Source: Chlamydiota bacterium (GTDB lineage Bacteria; Chlamydiota; Chlamydiia; Chlamydiales; SM23-39). Taken from it: a DNA stretch of 55,015 bases. Position numbers: made by a program. Positions 6,001-12,000 of the stretch are shown here, piece by piece; the stretch's first letter is position 1; each line of letters starts with the position of its first letter. The DNA lies in NCBI GenBank assembly GCA_048498835.1, contig JBEHXF010000007.1:1-55015 (forward strand), in the 5' to 3' direction.

Positions 6001-9000
6001 GATGGGACACTTTGCCCGCAGACATATGTCTGAAACTCTCACAGTAGCAGCCCTGATCATCGGCGCTGTCTCTGCTTGGAGAGGAATATTTATCGGCGGC
6101 GCTTTCTGGACGCTGATCTTCCTCGTTGCCGGAGCTGTTCTCGGTATCTTCTTCCCAACGCATGTAGACGGAATCTTGAAAAAAGTTTGCCAAGTTCTCT
6201 ACAAGAAAGAAAAAATTTCTGAAGTCATCGCCGGTTCTATTACAATCGTCATCGCTCTCTTCATCCCAATCGCTTACTTTGGATTCTTTGGGATGCTAGC
6301 AGGAAGCGCTTATCACTACTTCACTCGCTTTGCACAAGGTCATAGCGACAAGAACGGCTAAAAAGATCGGGGGCTTTCAAGCCCCCTTTCTCATCCTTTT
6401 GTAGAGAAAAAAATCTCGACTCTCTTATAGAGAGCTCAAGATGATCAAGCCCATGCTCGCCACTCTCATCAAAGAGCCCTTCGATTCACCCGATTGGATT
6501 TTTGAGATCAAGTGGGATGGATTTCGCGGCCTTGCCTGCAAAGCAAAAACTCTCCAGCTCTTATCTCGCAATCAACTTTCGTTTAACAAACGATTTCCCA
6601 ATATCGTGGAAGAGCTCGAAAAAATTTCAGGACGGTTTATCCTCGACGGGGAAATTGTCATTCTGGATCGGCAAGGCCGCTCGCAATTTCAGCTACTTCA
6701 AAATTACCCTAAAGAGAAGAAGGGGACTCCTTACTATTACCTGTTCGATATCCTCTCGTACAATGGCAAAGATCTCACCCATCTTCCTTTGATTGAGAGA
6801 AAAACGATCTTAGCTAAGCTGCTAACAAGTCGCCGTTTTAAATTCCTCCGCTTTAGTGAACATATCTTTACCAAAGGCAAAGAGCTCTTCAAGAAAGCAA
6901 AAGCCATGGGATATGAAGGGATTATCGCCAAGCGAGCCGATAGCGCGTATCAACCGAAACGGAGCCGCGACTGGTTAAAGATAAAATCGAGTCCTCGTCA
7001 GGAGGTCGTGATCGGCGGTTTTACCAAACCTCGGGGCAATCGAAGTAAATTTGGCTCTCTTCTCGTCGGCGTATATGAAAAAGGGAAGCTCCTTTACTCA
7101 GGACATGTGGGCGGAGGTTTTAATCAGGCGCTCTTGACACAGGTCTATGCAGAACTAAAAAAGCGAATTCAAGCTCGCTGTCCCTTTTCTGAAGAGCCAG
7201 AGCCCAATAGCCCCGCCACATGGGTCAAGCCAACGCTTGTCTGTGAAGTCTCTTTTGCTGAATGGACTCGCGACGGGCAGCTTCGCCAGCCGATTTTTAA
7301 AGGCCTTCGCCCCGATAAATCGGCCAAAAAAGTAGTGAGGGAACATGCCTAAATTGACACATCTCGATAAATTGTATTGGAAAAAGGAAAAGATTCGTAA
7401 AGGCGATCTCATTCACTATTATAAAACAGTTGCTAAGTACATTCTCCCTTACCTAAAAAATCGACCCGTTGTTCTTCACCGTTTCCCAAATGGCATCAAT
7501 GCGCCCCATTTTTTTCAAAAAGATGTGGGCCCCAATCCACCTCCTTTTATCCAAACCACTCCCATTCAGCATCAAGAGAGGAAAATCGATTATTTCGTCA
7601 TCCAAAATGTGGAAAGTCTTCTCGCTATTGCCAATCTCGGTGCGATTGAACTCCATCCCTTCCACGCTCCCATTAAACACTTGGATAAGCCCGATTATCT
7701 GATCTTTGATCTCGATCCTGACAATGTCTCGTTTGATCGGGTGATCGATGTGGCTCTCGCTCTTCACCATTTGCTCAATGAGCGCAAGATCCCAAATTTT
7801 TGTAAAACATCTGGTGGCACAGGCTTACATATCTATGTTCCTTTGAAGGGGGCCTATACCTATGACGTCGCTCGCGCCTTCGCGAAAAAAATTGGGCAGG
7901 CAATTGTGAAGCAATTTCCGAAACTGACTTCAATGGAACGAAGTCCTGCCAAACGTAAGCGCAAAATTTACATCGACACACAACAAAATCAACAGATGCA
8001 AACGGTGATCTGCCCTTACGCAGTTCGTGGATTTGCCCACGCAACGGTTGCGACTCCACTGGAATGGAAAGAAGTAAAACATGGGTTAAGGCCAACCGAT
8101 TTCACTATCTTCACTGTGCCTAAACGGTTAGCGCGAAAAGGGGATTCGTTCCGTTCTTTGTTTAAAAAACGGGCGTTAATAAAGGACGGGATTGGGAGCG
8201 AGCGATAAAATATCGAGTCCAAAAATCCCCCACCAGCCAATCATCATATGCGAGATCGTGACGCCTACAAGCGATCTTTGATATTCAAAAAGCGCTCCCC
8301 AAAAGATGCCGAAAATAAAGCTAAATACCGCTAAAAACAGATCGTTGGCCGTATGCAATATTTCAAACAAAATATTGGAAGACAAAATGGCATAAAAAAC
8401 TCTGTTTTCGCCCTGGAAGAAGTTGGTAAAACTGCTTTGTAGAACCCCTCGAGCAACCAGCTCTTGAACCGGACATAAGGCGAGGTAGAAAATGGTTTTT
8501 ATCAGAAGAATAGACAGGTTTTGAGAGGGCAAGGCGATCAGAGGAATCTCCGCAAAGCTTGGAACATTGCGAAGGAGGGCCCATTTCAGTAAAGTCATCA
8601 AGCCGAGTAGTGGTAGGGTGGCTAAAACAGCTTCCATAGCGACTTGTCCCCAACGATGCCATGTTAAACCGTAAAAGGAGAGCGGATAACCCGATTTCTG
8701 AATGAGTCGAACCGCGCCTGCGCCAAATAAGAGAATGGAGCTCGGCATAAAGATGAGGTTGATGGTATTGCGAAACGACCCTGCGTAATTGTTGTACGCC
8801 GCGATTACATTGAAGAAGATCGCGAACAAAATCATCGTATAAATGATCATTTTGCTCGCTTGGTTGTTCGATTGAAGGAGTAAGAGCTTATCTTTCAGCG
8901 TTTGAACTAATGTATCATCTGTTTTTCTCAAGCGCTGACTGATACGGCGAGTCAGTTTTGGGGCAATTTTGTGATAGACCGACCGATGCTCCGCTGAATC

Positions 9001-12000
9001 AGAAAGCTCTTCTAATAAAAGCACGACCGCTTCTACCGCATCAAATGCGCGAACAGAAGCAGAACGAGGACTTCTTTCGATGTGCGCCATTTCTCCAACC
9101 CAATCGCCAGGTTCTAGAACGCCGATGATTTGGGGATCTTTCAGATCTTTTTCATGCTTCACAACTTCAGCGCGGCCGCGTCGGATGATAAAGAGGTGCT
9201 GACTCGCCTCTCCTTCCCGGATGAGCCATTGCCCTTTTTCAAACATTTCATCGCGCAAAAAAGGAGTTAAGCTATGCAATTCTTCTTCGGTGAGATCCGC
9301 GAAGAGTTCATTTTGTTTTAAAAATGCAAAAAGCTTAGGCGAAGACGATTCGCTCATGGATATACCCCTCTTGTAGACATCTATCGAATTGAATCTTTAA
9401 AGTCTACAAGAGGGCGCAGTGGTTAGATAGCAGGAAGGCAAAGGTCTGCTTTTCGATTGGAAATCTGCTCTTTCAACCAGGTTACCGTAGGTCGAGGAGC
9501 CATTTGGCCTGTTTTAGAATCAAAGCTGTAAAAGCCGAAGCGAGTCGACCATGTAGGGTGATCAATCAATGTCCAGAAATGGAGAGAACGGACATTCACC
9601 CCTTGCTCTAAAGCTCTTTCAACTACTTGGAAAACACGGTCATAGTATTGAATCCGCTCTTCATCGCTTGTATCGCAATTGATCCCTGTGTCCATTCCAA
9701 TTTCAGTTAGCTCGATGGGAATTTCCAAGGAACTCAATTGATCGAGAATGGTGGCCAACCCTTGTGGATGTGGGCTAAATTCGAGCGATTTTTCGCCCGT
9801 CAAAGAGAGGCTTAAAAGCGGATCAGAATAATATTGCACTCCAATGAAATCGAGAGGTGGTTTTTCCGCAAATTCAAAGCTGTGATCAACACAGAACGGC
9901 ACTTTCATTTCAAACTTGCCAGTTTTGAGGAAGTTGAATAGGGAAGTGTGATGAATTTCGGTCAGGTAGTGGCACCAAATCTTTTCGGCTGGCATCAGCA
10001 GGGGATTTAGCGTGTGGAAGTTTTGGAATTGAATGGGATCGTGACTCAGTCCGATTGTTAAATCGGGATGCTGTGCTTTCAACGATTTGTAGATTTGTAC
10101 ATGGGCGCTCATCATGTTTTCAATCACATGAGCCGCTCCTTTGAAATCGCCTACCTGATGGGGATGCAACTGGCCCATGACCCATCCTTGGAAGGCAACG
10201 ACCGTCGGCTCATTGATCGTGATGAGCTTGCGCACTCCCGCATCATAAAGAGCATTTGCAATCGTGTTTGCGTATTGTACGAAACCTCCGACTTGGTCGC
10301 TTCTTTCCCAAGTAAAATAGTGAGGCGTGTACGAGCTGCCCAAGGTTACTAGTGGTTCAATTCCTTCTTGAATGAGACGCGCGCAGAGTTTGGCGTATTG
10401 TTGGAGAGCAATCTGATCGACCTCGCCATTTGCTTGTGGTTGAATTTTTTCGCGACTAATCGAAAAGGAAAACTTCGTAGCGCCGATTTCTTTCAGGCGG
10501 TTGATAGCTCGGTCGGGATAGTGCCAAAGATCGGGTACTTTTTCCGCCCCTGTCGAGTCATCTAAATGGCTTGTAAAGCCGATTTCAACCGGCGCAATTT
10601 TCCCTAAAGAGCCCTCCCATACGGGATATTTTGCAAATTGTGCTAAAGGAGAGAGCTTTGGCTGTTCAATCAATCCAATGCGCTTTGCGAGATAAGTGAG
10701 AGTAGATCCCGCCATTGCTACTGGTAAAAGTGCGATAAATTTAAAAAATTGATAGGCATAGGTGGCCACTTTCTCCATCCCTTCTTGATGGGTGGGAAGA
10801 AGGCTATTTTCTAATTCATCCCATGCCCAGTCTGTGAGATCGCCAATTCCTGAAACCATATTACCCCCGTTAATGAAGTCATGTTTATATGGAATCTTAA
10901 CTTTGAGGTAAAGAAATTTTTATATATGCAAAAATTGAACTGCTTGACGGTGAGGCTCTAAAGAAAGGTGATGTTTTTCTAAAGCTTCCACCGTGAATCG
11001 AGATTTTAAATGTTCAATGAGCTGCTGGATGAGCGTTTCTTTTGAGGGAACAAAGTCTTTCAGTCGGCACAGAAATTCTTCATGACTTCTGCTCTCTCGA
11101 TATTTGGGTCGCTTGGTCGGCAACAATAAATACTCCATATTCTCTTCTCGATAATCCCACAAAAAAGAAGTGTGATGAAGCCACCGGTCTTTTTTGATGT
11201 ATTGAGCATTACCTCCGCATTTTAGCTTCCCAATTGCATAATCGTTTTCAACTAGATGAAAACCCGGAATTTTCCAGCTCTCTGTATAAAGTTCTCCACT
11301 CCAACGCAAAATGGGTTCAGGAAAAGGATGGATGGGCAACACCCCTTTTTCAAAAAGAAATGAGATGAAGAGAGTCTGTTCATCGACAATGACAGTGCCG
11401 CCACCGCTAAATCTTTTGATGACGGGCACTCGATCGCGCTTCACACTCGCGAGATCGATCAATTCTTCCGGTTTTCCGGAGATACCCATCACAATTGCTC
11501 TGGGAGAGCCACGATTGATCAAGCAAACATTGAGATCCGAAGAGCGGAGCAGAGCTTCTTCGAGCTGTAGCTGTTCAAATATGGGAACGGAACCAAGATC
11601 TAGTAGATGAAGCTTAGGGCGAATAGCTGATCTCCGCGACATCTTCAATCGGTACGACCTGTAATCGAGATCCTTGATTAGAAGGATAGCGAACATAGAG
11701 CAAGGTGCCATTGGAAGAAGCCGTCACTTCTGTGACATTCATCAACATAGCGCCGCTATTGGTCCGAATGCTCACTTTCAAAGTCGGTTTATCTTTGCGC
11801 AAATGGTCAAATGCTTGGGCGATATCCGATGCTCTGGCTTTTGGATCAATGGAGTAGGGGTAGTTCGTTTTGTCATTTGTCGAAGGGCTTTTTTTATCAG
11901 AAACAACAGGTCCTGCTGAAGGACTTTTCTTATCGCTTTCTTGCGCGATGAGCGAAGCTGTACAGAAAAGAAAGAGGAGAGAGTATTTCATGACGGATCC

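What a model noticed while it worked through the whole genome (the two positions that open the first line are those of the whole stretch)
8176..9357. A cyclic-nucleotide-binding domain fused to a CPBP (CAAX-type) intramembrane protease, next to a CHASE2 adenylate cyclas [...]
g00444 (393 aa) joins an N-terminal cNMP-binding domain with an intact phosphate-binding cassette (GEMAHIERSPRSAS) to a C-terminal CPBP/Rce1-like membrane protease that keeps its motifs (QELVAR, FEILH, HTAND). All detectable relatives have the same build, so this is a dedicated family: a membrane protease presumably switched by cAMP/cGMP. It lies 2.4 kb from a CHASE2-sensor cyclase with its FecR-like partner (g00439-g00440). 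I found no report of a nucleotide-gated CPBP protease (one search).
Evidence so far: pfam.tsv: cNMP_binding + Rce1-like on one protein; residues 12-113 35% identical to the cGMP site of PKG1, E 2e-10. Call 161: 68 of 70 proteins at E<=1e-20 carry both PF00027 and PF02517 at 374-421 aa (the other two are fragments); sources name Chlamydiae MAGs and one Legionellaceae MAG. Motifs read from the sequence. Cyclases g00124, g00440, g00889 in pfam.tsv.
(Added by a program. Inside this text positions count along the whole contig: contig position 1 is position 1 of the stretch shown here. "Call 12" and the like, gene names such as g00115 and contig names such as C1 are that model's own, and its searches are not shown. 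The text may have been shortened before it was handed on; [...] marks where a part breaks off. The agent that wrote the report below was given it as the finding of a first reader that could run no searches.)

Follow-up and report, generated by a model that had tools for sequence, protein, structure and literature searches.

The report
cAMP sensor fused to altered CPBP domain
This gene encodes a membrane protein that joins a cyclic-AMP sensor to a relative of the Rce1/CPBP membrane proteases whose key catalytic residues are systematically replaced, so it looks like an unstudied cAMP output switch and probably not a conventional protease.

Summary
The ORF is real: window 8176-9357 (-), 393 aa, cNMP_binding plus Rce1-like, modelled at pLDDT 92.

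The sensor reading holds. The phosphate-binding cassette is conserved. Relatives sit beside class III cyclases of four input types and beside two kinds of phosphodiesterase. 42 of 44 genomes with the gene also have a cyclase.

The protease reading is weak. The first Glu of EExxxR, the catalytic base in Rce1, is Gln in 185 of 186 relatives. The motif-3 Asn/Asp is Gly/Ala in 183 of 186. Three other CPBP genes in the same genome are canonical. One clade keeps the sensor but has lost the motif-2 His in 6 copies.

A homodimer through the long helix from the sensor into TM1 is modelled: score 0.43, best control 0.17.

Best reading: a dimeric cAMP receptor with a non-proteolytic, or chemically altered, CPBP output. 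Six literature searches found no report. This scan noted the same fusion twice in other genomes.

The parts
8176..9357 (-). Whole gene: 393-aa cNMP-binding / CPBP-fold membrane protein (P0001)
   Evidence: ORF list and translation. Pfam. AlphaFold2 model with mean pLDDT 92.2, pTM 0.76.
8998..9324 (-). Cytoplasmic cyclic-nucleotide-binding domain, residues 12-120
   Evidence: Pfam PF00027, E 5e-18. VIA-align: PKA RI-alpha CNB-B 5kjz_A, Z 18.0, rmsd 2.6, 144 aligned. Foldseek E 7e-9.
9055..9096 (-). Phosphate-binding cassette GEMAHIERSPRSAS (G88, E89, R98, S99, A100)
   Evidence: Translation check. Of 186 relatives: G88 184, E89 173, R98 169, S/T99 169, A100 171. R98 is kept in 31 of 32 and 69 of 73 further copies.
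8863..8994 (-). Linker: C-helix and signalling helix, residues 122-165, continuous with TM1. It carries the conserved R142-L143-R144-x-T146-[ND]-[ED] motif.
   Evidence: One unbroken helix 122-189 in the model. Conservation. Heptad-like homodimer interface 139-191.
8194..8862 (-). Seven-helix CPBP/Rce1-fold membrane domain, residues 166-388
   Evidence: VIA-align: SpdC 6u0o_A, Z 15.4, rmsd 4.0, 212 aligned; MmRce1 4cad_C, Z 15.3, rmsd 3.3, 205 aligned. Pfam PF02517.
8449..8466 (-). Motif 1 variant QELVAR (Q298 E299 R303): Gln in place of the catalytic Glu, structural Glu-Arg pair kept
   Evidence: The role of each Glu is taken from passages read.
8353..8367 (-). Motif 2 FEILH (F331, H335)
   Evidence: F331 in 179 and H335 in 181 of 186. 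The His is lost in 6 of 32 genome-derived copies.
8236..8250 (-). Motif 3 variant HMMIG (H370, G374): His kept, Asn/Asp replaced by Gly
   Evidence: H370 in 184 of 186. Position 374 is G in 174 and A in 9 of 186, never N or D. Aligned with the canonical paralogues' HALFN, HTWYD and HMVHN.
3599..5791 (-). CHASE2 class III cyclase, 730 aa, with adenine-type specificity residues. Probable local source of the ligand.
   Evidence: Pfam CHASE2 1e-53 and Guanylate_cyc 4e-25. DKYVGD and T..N...R motifs. The same FAM / small-TM / cyclase order occurs in L063.
5960..6361 (+). 133-aa membrane protein (three hydrophobic stretches by my hydropathy scan), no Pfam family. It is the tail-to-tail neighbour of this gene in four related loci; here it is separated from it by the LigD gene pair. 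A possible partner, unproven.
   Evidence: BLASTP 45-56% identity to the neighbours in L039/L059, L060, L062 and L063. Hydropathy. No Pfam family.

Best explanation
The protein is an inner-membrane receptor for a cyclic nucleotide, most likely cAMP.

1. The cytoplasmic N-terminal domain binds the nucleotide through an intact phosphate-binding cassette.
2. Its C-helix runs on as one roughly 68-residue helix (122-189). This helix pairs with the same helix of a second subunit as a parallel coiled coil and then becomes TM1 of a seven-helix CPBP/Rce1-fold domain.
3. That domain keeps the buried Glu-Arg pair and, in most members, both histidines. It has Gln where Rce1 has its catalytic Glu and Gly where Rce1 has its oxyanion Asn.
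4. I therefore propose that ligand-driven movement of the coiled coil, TM1 and the adjoining motif-2 helix (TM5) changes how the conserved polar pocket, or the domain surface, binds a membrane partner or lipid/peptide ligand. This would be a cAMP-controlled pseudoprotease switch, of the kind known for the non-catalytic CPBP proteins SpdC, SpbR, Abx1 and CflP. It would not be a cAMP-gated protease.

Shown here: the domain make-up, the fold, the residue replacements and their conservation, and the gene linkage to cyclases and phosphodiesterases.
Modelled: the dimer.
Inferred: the ligand identity, the transmission route, and the non-proteolytic output.
For: Sensor:
- Cassette conservation.
- This is one of only two PF00027 proteins in a 97%-complete genome that has three cyclases.
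- 8 of 28 genomic loci hold a cyclase within about 5 kb. 3 of 28 hold an adjacent metallo-beta-lactamase gene. Two of these three pass Pfam's Apyc1 cut-off.
- 12 of 80 metagenomic loci hold a cyclase in 498 kb of flanks, and 8 of the 22 loci with at least 3 kb on both sides. The window's own genome has 3 cyclases in 1.97 Mb.
- L146 reads dCache-cyclase, Metallophos phosphoesterase, family gene, family gene, all on one strand.
- L045 has a CHASE2-cyclase overlapping the family gene by 4 bases on the same strand.
- Cyclase input domains differ: CHASE2, dCache, REC, FHA.
- 42 of 44 genomes with the gene have PF00211, against 231 of 401 overall.
- The linked cyclases carry Lys/Thr or Lys/Asp pairs. 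That these pairs mark adenylate cyclases is recalled knowledge.

Altered site:
- Q298 in 185 of 186; position 374 is Gly/Ala in 183 of 186.
- None of 104 further copies has Glu at 298 or Asn/Asp at 374.
- The three other CPBP genes of this genome are canonical.
- The catalytic role of the first Glu, and the non-catalytic CPBPs with degenerate motifs, come from passages read.
- Six copies in one Chlamydiota clade have lost the motif-2 His but keep the cassette. Four of the six lie in loci that hold a REC-cyclase and a fifth beside an Apyc1-like gene.
- The same QE...HxxxG module follows a PAS domain in P0051, a REC plus CNBD in P0118, and stands alone in L134. It behaves as an output module for several sensors.

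Dimer:
- Score 0.43, best of 3 controls 0.17.
- In calibration the mark was reached by 20 of 30 proteins solved as pairs of one chain and by 1 of 23 solved as single chains.
- The runs agree in at least 80% of contacts; partner pLDDT is at least 77.
Against: - Q298, Q307, H335 and H370 are invariant or nearly so across sequences that share under 30% identity. This argues that the pocket still does something specific, which could be chemistry rather than binding. In known non-catalytic CPBPs the motifs are often degenerate (SpbR: HELYMR, FIYLD, QIVAI).
- No partner gene is conserved across the family. The neighbours are clade-specific.
- The dimer score only just passes the mark of 0.42. CRP-type C-helix dimers are solved, so the pass may partly reflect memory of such structures.
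- No coordinates were available, so the geometry of the pocket, and the side on which it opens, were not measured.
- Two genomes with the gene show no class III cyclase: G046 (97% complete) and G214 (93% complete).
- Ligand identity rests on neighbouring cyclases and recalled specificity rules. The best PDB sequence matches are cGMP-kinase domains.
Confidence: 0.5

Rival explanations
1. One reading: an active intramembrane protease switched by cAMP or cGMP. It would use a variant site in which His335 acts as the base, oriented by Gln298, and another group replaces the missing oxyanion Asn.
For: CPBP fold and Pfam match above cut-off. Q298, H335 and H370 are extremely conserved, and N328 is kept in 164 of 186. 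All 73 metagenomic copies keep Q, E, R, H and H. Such constraint is what an active site would show.
Against: Two of the four residues assigned to catalysis in Rce1 are replaced family-wide. Six copies in one clade lack the motif-2 His yet keep the sensor and mostly the cyclase or phosphodiesterase linkage. The characterised CPBPs with altered motifs that are named in the passages I read are non-catalytic. No candidate substrate gene is conserved.
Confidence: 0.28
2. The CNB domain no longer signals through cAMP or cGMP. It binds another ligand or is purely structural, and the protein is a constitutive CPBP-type scaffold.
For: Two genomes carry the gene without a detected class III cyclase. The G214 copy has His in place of the cassette Arg. 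17 of 186 relatives lack R98.
Against: The cassette is intact in about nine of ten copies. Operon-level linkage to cyclases and phosphodiesterases recurs.
Confidence: 0.07
3. A Pycsar-like anti-phage effector: a cyclic-nucleotide-activated membrane protein that damages the cell on infection.
For: The CNB part (residues 37-145) matches PADLOC PycTIR and Effector models at E 1e-11 to 1e-12. Structural match to the PycTIR CNB domain 8jsk_B: Z 17.2, rmsd 4.1, 151 aligned. Apyc1-like genes lie beside some copies.
Against: Only the generic CNB domain matches; no defence model covers the membrane part. The linked cyclases carry signalling inputs (CHASE2, dCache, REC, FHA) and sit with histidine kinases. 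The gene lies in a conserved housekeeping neighbourhood (LplA/B, succinate dehydrogenase) in relatives.
Confidence: 0.03
4. A cAMP-gated transporter or channel-like protein that uses the CPBP cavity as a conduit.
For: The layout is that of a cyclic-nucleotide sensor attached to a polytopic membrane domain, as in SthK or SLC9C1, which are among the structural matches of the sensor. In one clade (4 of the 5 f6 loci examined, L054-L057) the genes sit beside MacB-type ABC exporter genes.
Against: I know of no CPBP protein that transports, and none appears in the papers read. The fold match is to Rce1 and SpdC only.
Confidence: 0.05

Closest known systems
Rce1 / CPBP glutamic intramembrane proteases (Pfam PF02517; MmRce1, PDB 4CAD; MroQ, MrtX)
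   Same: Same membrane fold: 4cad_C, Z 15.3, rmsd 3.3, 205 aligned. Pfam match above cut-off. Motif-1 Glu-Arg pair, motif-2 FxxxH and the motif-3 His are in the equivalent helices.
   Different: Gln replaces the catalytic first Glu, and Gly replaces the oxyanion Asn/Asp, throughout the family. An N-terminal cytoplasmic sensor is joined by a continuous helix. The model has seven membrane helices.
Non-catalytic CPBP regulators: S. aureus SpdC (PDB 6U0O) and SpbR, group B Streptococcus Abx1 and CflP
   Same: CPBP fold with altered or dispensable catalytic residues. SpdC is the top structural match of the membrane part: Z 15.4, rmsd 4.0, 212 aligned. By the passages read, these proteins act by binding and regulating another membrane protein.
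   Different: None of them is described with a fused sensor domain in the passages I read. Their motifs are degenerate or dispensable, whereas here the replacement residues themselves are nearly invariant. No partner is known here.
CRP/FNR regulators and cyclic-nucleotide-regulated membrane proteins (SthK, MloK1, HCN/CNG channels, SLC9C1)
   Same: Same sensor fold and cassette. The modelled dimer uses the C-helix, as CRP does (recalled). The logic is the same: a nucleotide sensor controls a membrane domain.
   Different: The sensor is N-terminal and runs straight into TM1. The output is a CPBP fold, not a DNA-binding domain or a pore.
Pycsar effectors (PycTIR, PycTM)
   Same: A CNB domain joined to an effector part; PADLOC domain-level matches at E about 1e-12.
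   Different: No match beyond the CNB domain. The gene context is signalling rather than defence.

Membership tests
CPBP / Rce1-like (PF02517) | Pfam model matched above the gathering score | tested here: met
   43.5 bits against a cut-off of 22.4, residues 285-373.
CPBP / Rce1-like (PF02517) | Rce1-type polytopic fold | tested here: met
   4cad_C: Z 15.3, rmsd 3.3, 205 aligned. 6u0o_A: Z 15.4, rmsd 4.0, 212 aligned. The model has pLDDT 92.2.
CPBP / Rce1-like (PF02517) | Motif 1 EExxxR: first Glu (catalytic) | tested here: not met
   Gln298 here and in 185 of 186 relatives. 102 of 105 further sequences (the window's own copy counted in both sets) have Gln, one His and two an alignment gap; none has Glu. 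The canonical paralogues have Glu in this column.
CPBP / Rce1-like (PF02517) | Motif 1 EExxxR: second Glu and Arg (structural pair) | tested here: met
   E299 and R303 are each kept in 185 of 186.
CPBP / Rce1-like (PF02517) | Motif 2 FxxxH | tested here: met
   FEILH. F331 in 179 and H335 in 181 of 186. The His is lost in 6 of 32 genome-derived copies from another clade.
CPBP / Rce1-like (PF02517) | Motif 3 HxxxB (B = Asn or Asp) | tested here: not met
   HMMIG. The His is kept (184 of 186). B is Gly in 174 and Ala in 9 of 186, never Asn or Asp.
CPBP / Rce1-like (PF02517) | Peptide-bond hydrolysis | not testable with these tools
   Needs an enzyme assay.
Cyclic-nucleotide-binding domain (PF00027) | Pfam model above the gathering score, and the beta-barrel fold | tested here: met
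   65.3 bits against 27.5. 5kjz_A: Z 18.0, rmsd 2.6, 144 aligned.
Cyclic-nucleotide-binding domain (PF00027) | Phosphate-binding cassette G-E ... R-[ST]-A | tested here: met
   G88, E89, R98, S99 and A100 are present and conserved.
Cyclic-nucleotide-binding domain (PF00027) | Binds cAMP or cGMP | not testable with these tools
   Inferred from the cassette and from linkage to cyclases and phosphodiesterases.
Pycsar effector | Full-length match to a Pycsar effector model, and pairing with a PycC-type cyclase | tested here: not met
   PADLOC matches cover residues 37-145 only. The neighbouring cyclases have CHASE2, dCache, REC or FHA inputs.

The most novel reading that the evidence does not exclude
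The 'Gln-variant' CPBP domain (QExxxR ... FxxxH ... SHxxxG) is a distinct, widespread bacterial signalling output module. Cytoplasmic sensors (CNB, PAS, REC+CNB) drive it through a dimeric signalling helix. Together with dedicated cyclases and phosphodiesterases it forms self-contained cAMP writer / eraser / reader cassettes that act on the cell envelope. In this environmental chlamydia it would be one of only two cyclic-nucleotide receptors, and so a main route by which cAMP acts.
Probability: 0.45. Interest if true: 0.7.

Novelty: new variant of a known kind. Interest (0 to 1): 0.6.

Why it matters
Few output proteins for bacterial cAMP signalling are known beyond CRP-type regulators, and none that I know of is a CPBP protein. 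This family would add a membrane-embedded output. It is large: 441 clusters at 50% identity.

CPBP proteins are increasingly recognised as non-catalytic regulators of envelope enzymes and kinases (passages read). A version with a built-in second-messenger sensor would show how such scaffolds can be switched.

For environmental chlamydiae, which encode cyclases but very few receptors, it names a concrete candidate for what cAMP controls.

The invariant Glu-to-Gln change also offers a natural test of the Rce1 mechanism.

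Tried and rejected
- phmmer of the membrane part alone (residues 161-393) against PDB sequences gave only a chance-level match to ribosomal protein uS8 (E 0.005). There was no Rce1 hit, so the fold link rests on structure comparison and Pfam.
- Foldseek on the whole model listed only CNB domains among the rows shown.
The narrower alignments A2 and A4 worked.
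- Most A2 hits outside Chlamydiota proved to be CNB-only proteins, not family members.
A scan of small ORFs within 500 bases in the window and 30 loci found no recurrent Cys-rich ORF. It found only the 130-150-aa membrane protein with 0 or 1 Cys, in five loci counting the window. That ORF scan is noisy.
- No neighbour is conserved family-wide.
- My first gene calling in high-GC metagenomic loci dropped 27 of 80 family ORFs in favour of spurious longer frames. I redid it on stop-to-stop frames.
- The 534-aa ORF L155:5156-6760 looks spurious: 25 Cys, Arg/Pro-rich, no Pfam family.
- The promoter and terminator scan gave nothing usable for this gene: 4 promoter-like sites against 8.8 expected.
- The Rce1 structure paper (PMC3864837) is not held. 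The roles of the two glutamates come from passages of a 2026 preprint, not from the primary paper.
- Literature searches that returned no report of a cyclic-nucleotide-binding CPBP/CAAX protein. Only search listings were seen. The one paper opened was irrelevant.

Full report
**Observation.**
The window holds an ATG-started ORF at 8176-9357 on the minus strand, 393 aa.
- Pfam finds cNMP_binding at residues 39-118 (E 5e-18) and Rce1-like at 285-373 (E 3.8e-11). Both are above their curated cut-offs.
- NCBIfam gives only domain-level matches, all far below their cut-offs: Pat, CRP and MrtJ-type CPBP.
- An AlphaFold2 model built on 44 homologues is confident: mean pLDDT 92.2, pTM 0.76. It shows a beta-barrel domain, then one unbroken helix from residue 122 to 189, then six more long helices.
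- Structure comparison splits the model in two. Residues 1-155 match CNB domains: PKA RI-alpha 5kjz_A, Z 18.0, rmsd 2.6, 144 aligned. Residues about 160-389 match S. aureus SpdC (6u0o_A, Z 15.4, rmsd 4.0, 212 aligned) and M. maripaludis Rce1 (4cad_C, Z 15.3, rmsd 3.3, 205 aligned).

**The motifs.**
- By passages I read in two papers (PMC12260438; bioRxiv 10.64898/2026.10.04.756536), CPBP proteins are defined by EExxxR, FxxxH and HxxxB (B = Asn or Asp).
- In the Rce1 structure the first Glu and the motif-2 His form the catalytic dyad. The motif-3 His and Asn form the oxyanion hole. [quoted passage not shown]
- The primary Rce1 paper is not held.
- In this protein motif 1 is QELVAR, motif 2 is FEILH and motif 3 is S-HMMIG.
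- 'HTAND' begins at the motif-2 His, and its N and D are not conserved: 10 and 12 of 186.

**Conservation across relatives.**

| Position | Kept, of 186 |
|---|---|
| Q298 | 185 |
| E299 | 185 |
| R303 | 185 |
| Q307 | 186 |
| H335 | 181 |
| H370 | 184 |
| 374 | Gly 174, Ala 9, never Asn or Asp |

- Full-length copies taken from loci: none of the 104 copies beyond the window's own (31 from genomes, 73 from metagenomes) has Glu at 298 or Asn/Asp at 374.
- As an internal control, the three other CPBP genes of the same genome read VEELLFR/FSFFH/HALFN, GEEALYR/FSAAH/HTWYD and LEELLHR/FSALH/HMVHN. They align column for column with the variant motifs.
- So two of the four residues assigned to catalysis are replaced as a rule of this family, while the structural pair is kept.

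**A clade that goes further.**
In one family of the same order (f6; loci L054-L058), six copies have also lost the motif-2 His (Phe, Leu, Asn or Asp in its place). One copy in another family (L052) has lost E299 and R303. All of these keep G88, E89 and R98 of the nucleotide cassette. In the tandem arrays L054 and L058 one copy keeps the His and the others do not. Four of the six His-less copies lie in loci that hold a REC-cyclase gene, and a fifth lies directly beside an Apyc1-like gene. The sensor is thus conserved where the putative dyad is not.

**The sensor and its ligand.**
- The cassette G-E ... R-[ST]-A is kept in about nine of ten relatives.
- The genome (1.97 Mb, 97% complete) has only two PF00027 proteins. 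One is this protein. The other is a 147-aa stand-alone domain on contig 27, next to a TLC/HEAT protein. The genome has three class III cyclases.
- I examined 28 loci from genomes: the window, 20 from a 400-genome sample of the phylum, and 7 from GTDB contigs.
  - A cyclase lies within about 5 kb in 8 of them: the window, L040, L045, L054, L055, L056, L057 and L063.
  - A metallo-beta-lactamase gene lies directly beside the family gene on the same strand in 3: L043, L056 and L058. That makes 10 of 28 with one or the other.
  - Two of the three beta-lactamase-fold genes pass Pfam's cut-off for Apyc1 (111.7 and 96.9 bits against 50). The third does not (25.9 bits). That Apyc1 is a cyclic-nucleotide phosphodiesterase is recalled.
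- In 80 metagenomic loci of distant relatives (about 25-43% identity to the A4 query), 12 hold a cyclase in 498 kb of flanking DNA. Of the 22 loci with at least 3 kb on both sides, 8 do.
  - The window's own genome has 3 cyclases in 1.97 Mb.
  - The comparison is rough, because other organisms may encode many more cyclases. Kinship also inflates the counts, and L137 is the same contig as L043.
- What makes the link convincing is its variety:
  - CHASE2-cyclase overlapping the gene by 4 bases (L045);
  - dCache-cyclase with FecR (L040);
  - REC-cyclase with hybrid kinases (L054-L056, L159, L160);
  - FHA-cyclase (L155);
  - L146, where dCache-cyclase, a Metallophos phosphoesterase and two family genes follow one another on one strand.
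- Of the 44 genomes with the gene among 400 scored, 42 also match PF00211, against 231 of 401 overall. The exceptions are G046 (97% complete) and G214 (93%). The G214 copy has His in place of the cassette Arg.
- The linked cyclases read DK[YF][VM]GD with Thr seven residues before the N...R motif, or IKT[IS]GD with Asp there. By recalled rules for class III cyclases these are adenylate-cyclase signatures, so I favour cAMP.
- The CNB sequence itself does not decide. Its best PDB matches are cGMP-kinase domains, with PKA and CRP close behind.

**Architecture and transmission.**
- The helix 122-189 carries a conserved R142-L143-R144-x-T146-[ND]-[ED] motif. Leu or Ile recur at 135, 139, 143, 154 and 158.
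- A two-copy fold passed the tool's mark: score 0.43, best of 3 controls 0.17.
  - In calibration the mark was reached by 20 of 30 proteins solved as pairs of one chain and by 1 of 23 solved as single chains.
  - The runs agree in at least 80% of contacts, and the partner's pLDDT is at least 77.
  - The interface is a symmetric, heptad-like stripe from 139 to 191, plus residues 326-343 of the helix that carries motif 2.
  - The pass is narrow. CRP-type C-helix dimers are solved, so it may owe something to memory. It supports a dimer and does not show one.
- The same variant CPBP module follows a PAS domain (P0051, with QEFVAR, FSAFH and HFIVG), follows REC plus CNB (P0118) or two CNB stretches (P0153), and stands alone in Sorangium (L134, QELIARG). 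It behaves as an exchangeable output for cytoplasmic sensors.

**What it most likely does.**
I read it as a dimeric cAMP receptor. Its signalling helix moves TM1 and the adjoining motif-2 helix, and thereby changes what the conserved polar pocket or the domain surface binds.

Given the replaced base and oxyanion residue, the His-less clade, and the precedent of SpdC, SpbR, Abx1 and CflP, I put a non-proteolytic output ahead of proteolysis, at about 0.5 against 0.28.

The main argument the other way is the near-invariance of Q298, Q307, H335 and H370 at under 30% overall identity. That looks like a working site, and I cannot say what it binds.

Candidate partners are only clade-specific:
- A 130-150-aa membrane protein lies tail-to-tail with the gene in L039, L060, L062 and L063. 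In the window it is at 5960-6361, separated from the gene by the LigD pair. L063 has the order family gene, small protein, cyclase, which mirrors the window.
- MacB-type ABC exporter genes lie beside the gene in L054-L057.
- A PD40-OmpA protein and a 533-aa polytopic protein flank it in L153, L159, L165 and L211.

All are envelope proteins, which fits the known roles of CPBP scaffolds but proves nothing.

**Rivals.**
- A Pycsar-type defence effector is unlikely. PADLOC matches cover the CNB domain only, and the context is signalling.
- A degenerate, ligand-free CNB domain is unlikely given the cassette and the linkage.
- A transport role has no support beyond the layout.

**Distribution and novelty.**
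- The family has 441 clusters at 50% identity at E<=1e-30.
- At least nine ESM-Atlas clusters have this architecture, with Pseudomonadota the commonest taxon.
- It occurs in 44 of 400 sampled genomes of this phylum. All 44 are in one order, with up to four copies per genome.
- Record titles of close relatives name Chlamydiota, Parachlamydiales and Rhabdochlamydia MAGs. A deltaproteobacterial and a Rhodospirillum genome carry full-length members.
- Six literature searches found no paper on a cyclic-nucleotide-binding CPBP/CAAX protein.
- This scan had noted the same fusion twice in other genomes, and the follow-up notes also remarked on the missing catalytic Glu. Those are unchecked AI notes, not independent evidence.
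- I class it as a new variant of known kinds (CNB-regulated effectors; non-catalytic CPBPs), with interest 0.6.

Noticed in passing
window 5960-6386: A 133-aa membrane protein with no Pfam family is the tail-to-tail neighbour of the family gene in four related loci. Here the two LigD genes lie between them. A strong two-way hairpin (7 pairs, 6 G-C) sits at 6369-6386, just after it. This looks like an insertion of the LigD pair into an older convergent gene pair.
   Followed up: partly
window 6441-8208: LigD is split into an ATP-dependent ligase gene (303 aa) and a primase-polymerase gene (287 aa) that overlap by 8 bases. The second gene overlaps the 3' end of the studied gene by 33 bases on the opposite strand. 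I did not look for a Ku gene.
   Followed up: no
window 984-5791: A ShlB/FhaC-type outer-membrane protein, a FecR-domain protein and the CHASE2-cyclase lie together. FecR lies beside a sensor cyclase again in L040 (dCache) and L045 (CHASE2). This suggests a conserved envelope-sensing input module for these cyclases.
   Followed up: partly
window 15806-20029: A DnaB helicase gene of 1407 aa is interrupted by intein sequence with LAGLIDADG endonuclease domains. Two Intein_splicing stretches are reported.
   Followed up: no
G000 contig 27, L008 3910-7120: The genome's only other CNB protein is a 147-aa stand-alone domain. Its gene overlaps the end of a 926-aa TLC-transporter/HEAT-repeat gene, and a HAMP-domain gene follows.
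   Followed up: partly
L054 6971-10314; L058 6983-9197; L049 6998-9246: Family genes occur in tandem arrays of two or three. In L054 and L058 one copy keeps the motif-2 His and the others have lost it, which might mean mixed dimers.
   Followed up: partly
L141 3157-4971: A CNB-domain / NTE-P-loop / patatin phospholipase gene lies head-to-head with a family gene. It is a second kind of cyclic-nucleotide-binding membrane-lipid enzyme at the same locus.
   Followed up: no
L043 4834-6962: A response-regulator receiver fused to a metallo-beta-lactamase domain lies next to the stand-alone metallo-beta-lactamase gene that follows the family gene. It may be a phosphorylation-controlled phosphodiesterase.
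   Followed up: no
window 9423-10859 and L053 4160-5758: A glycoside hydrolase family 1 gene lies on the same strand as the family gene, both here (65 bases upstream) and in a distant relative. I could not tell whether this is linkage or plain synteny.
   Followed up: no
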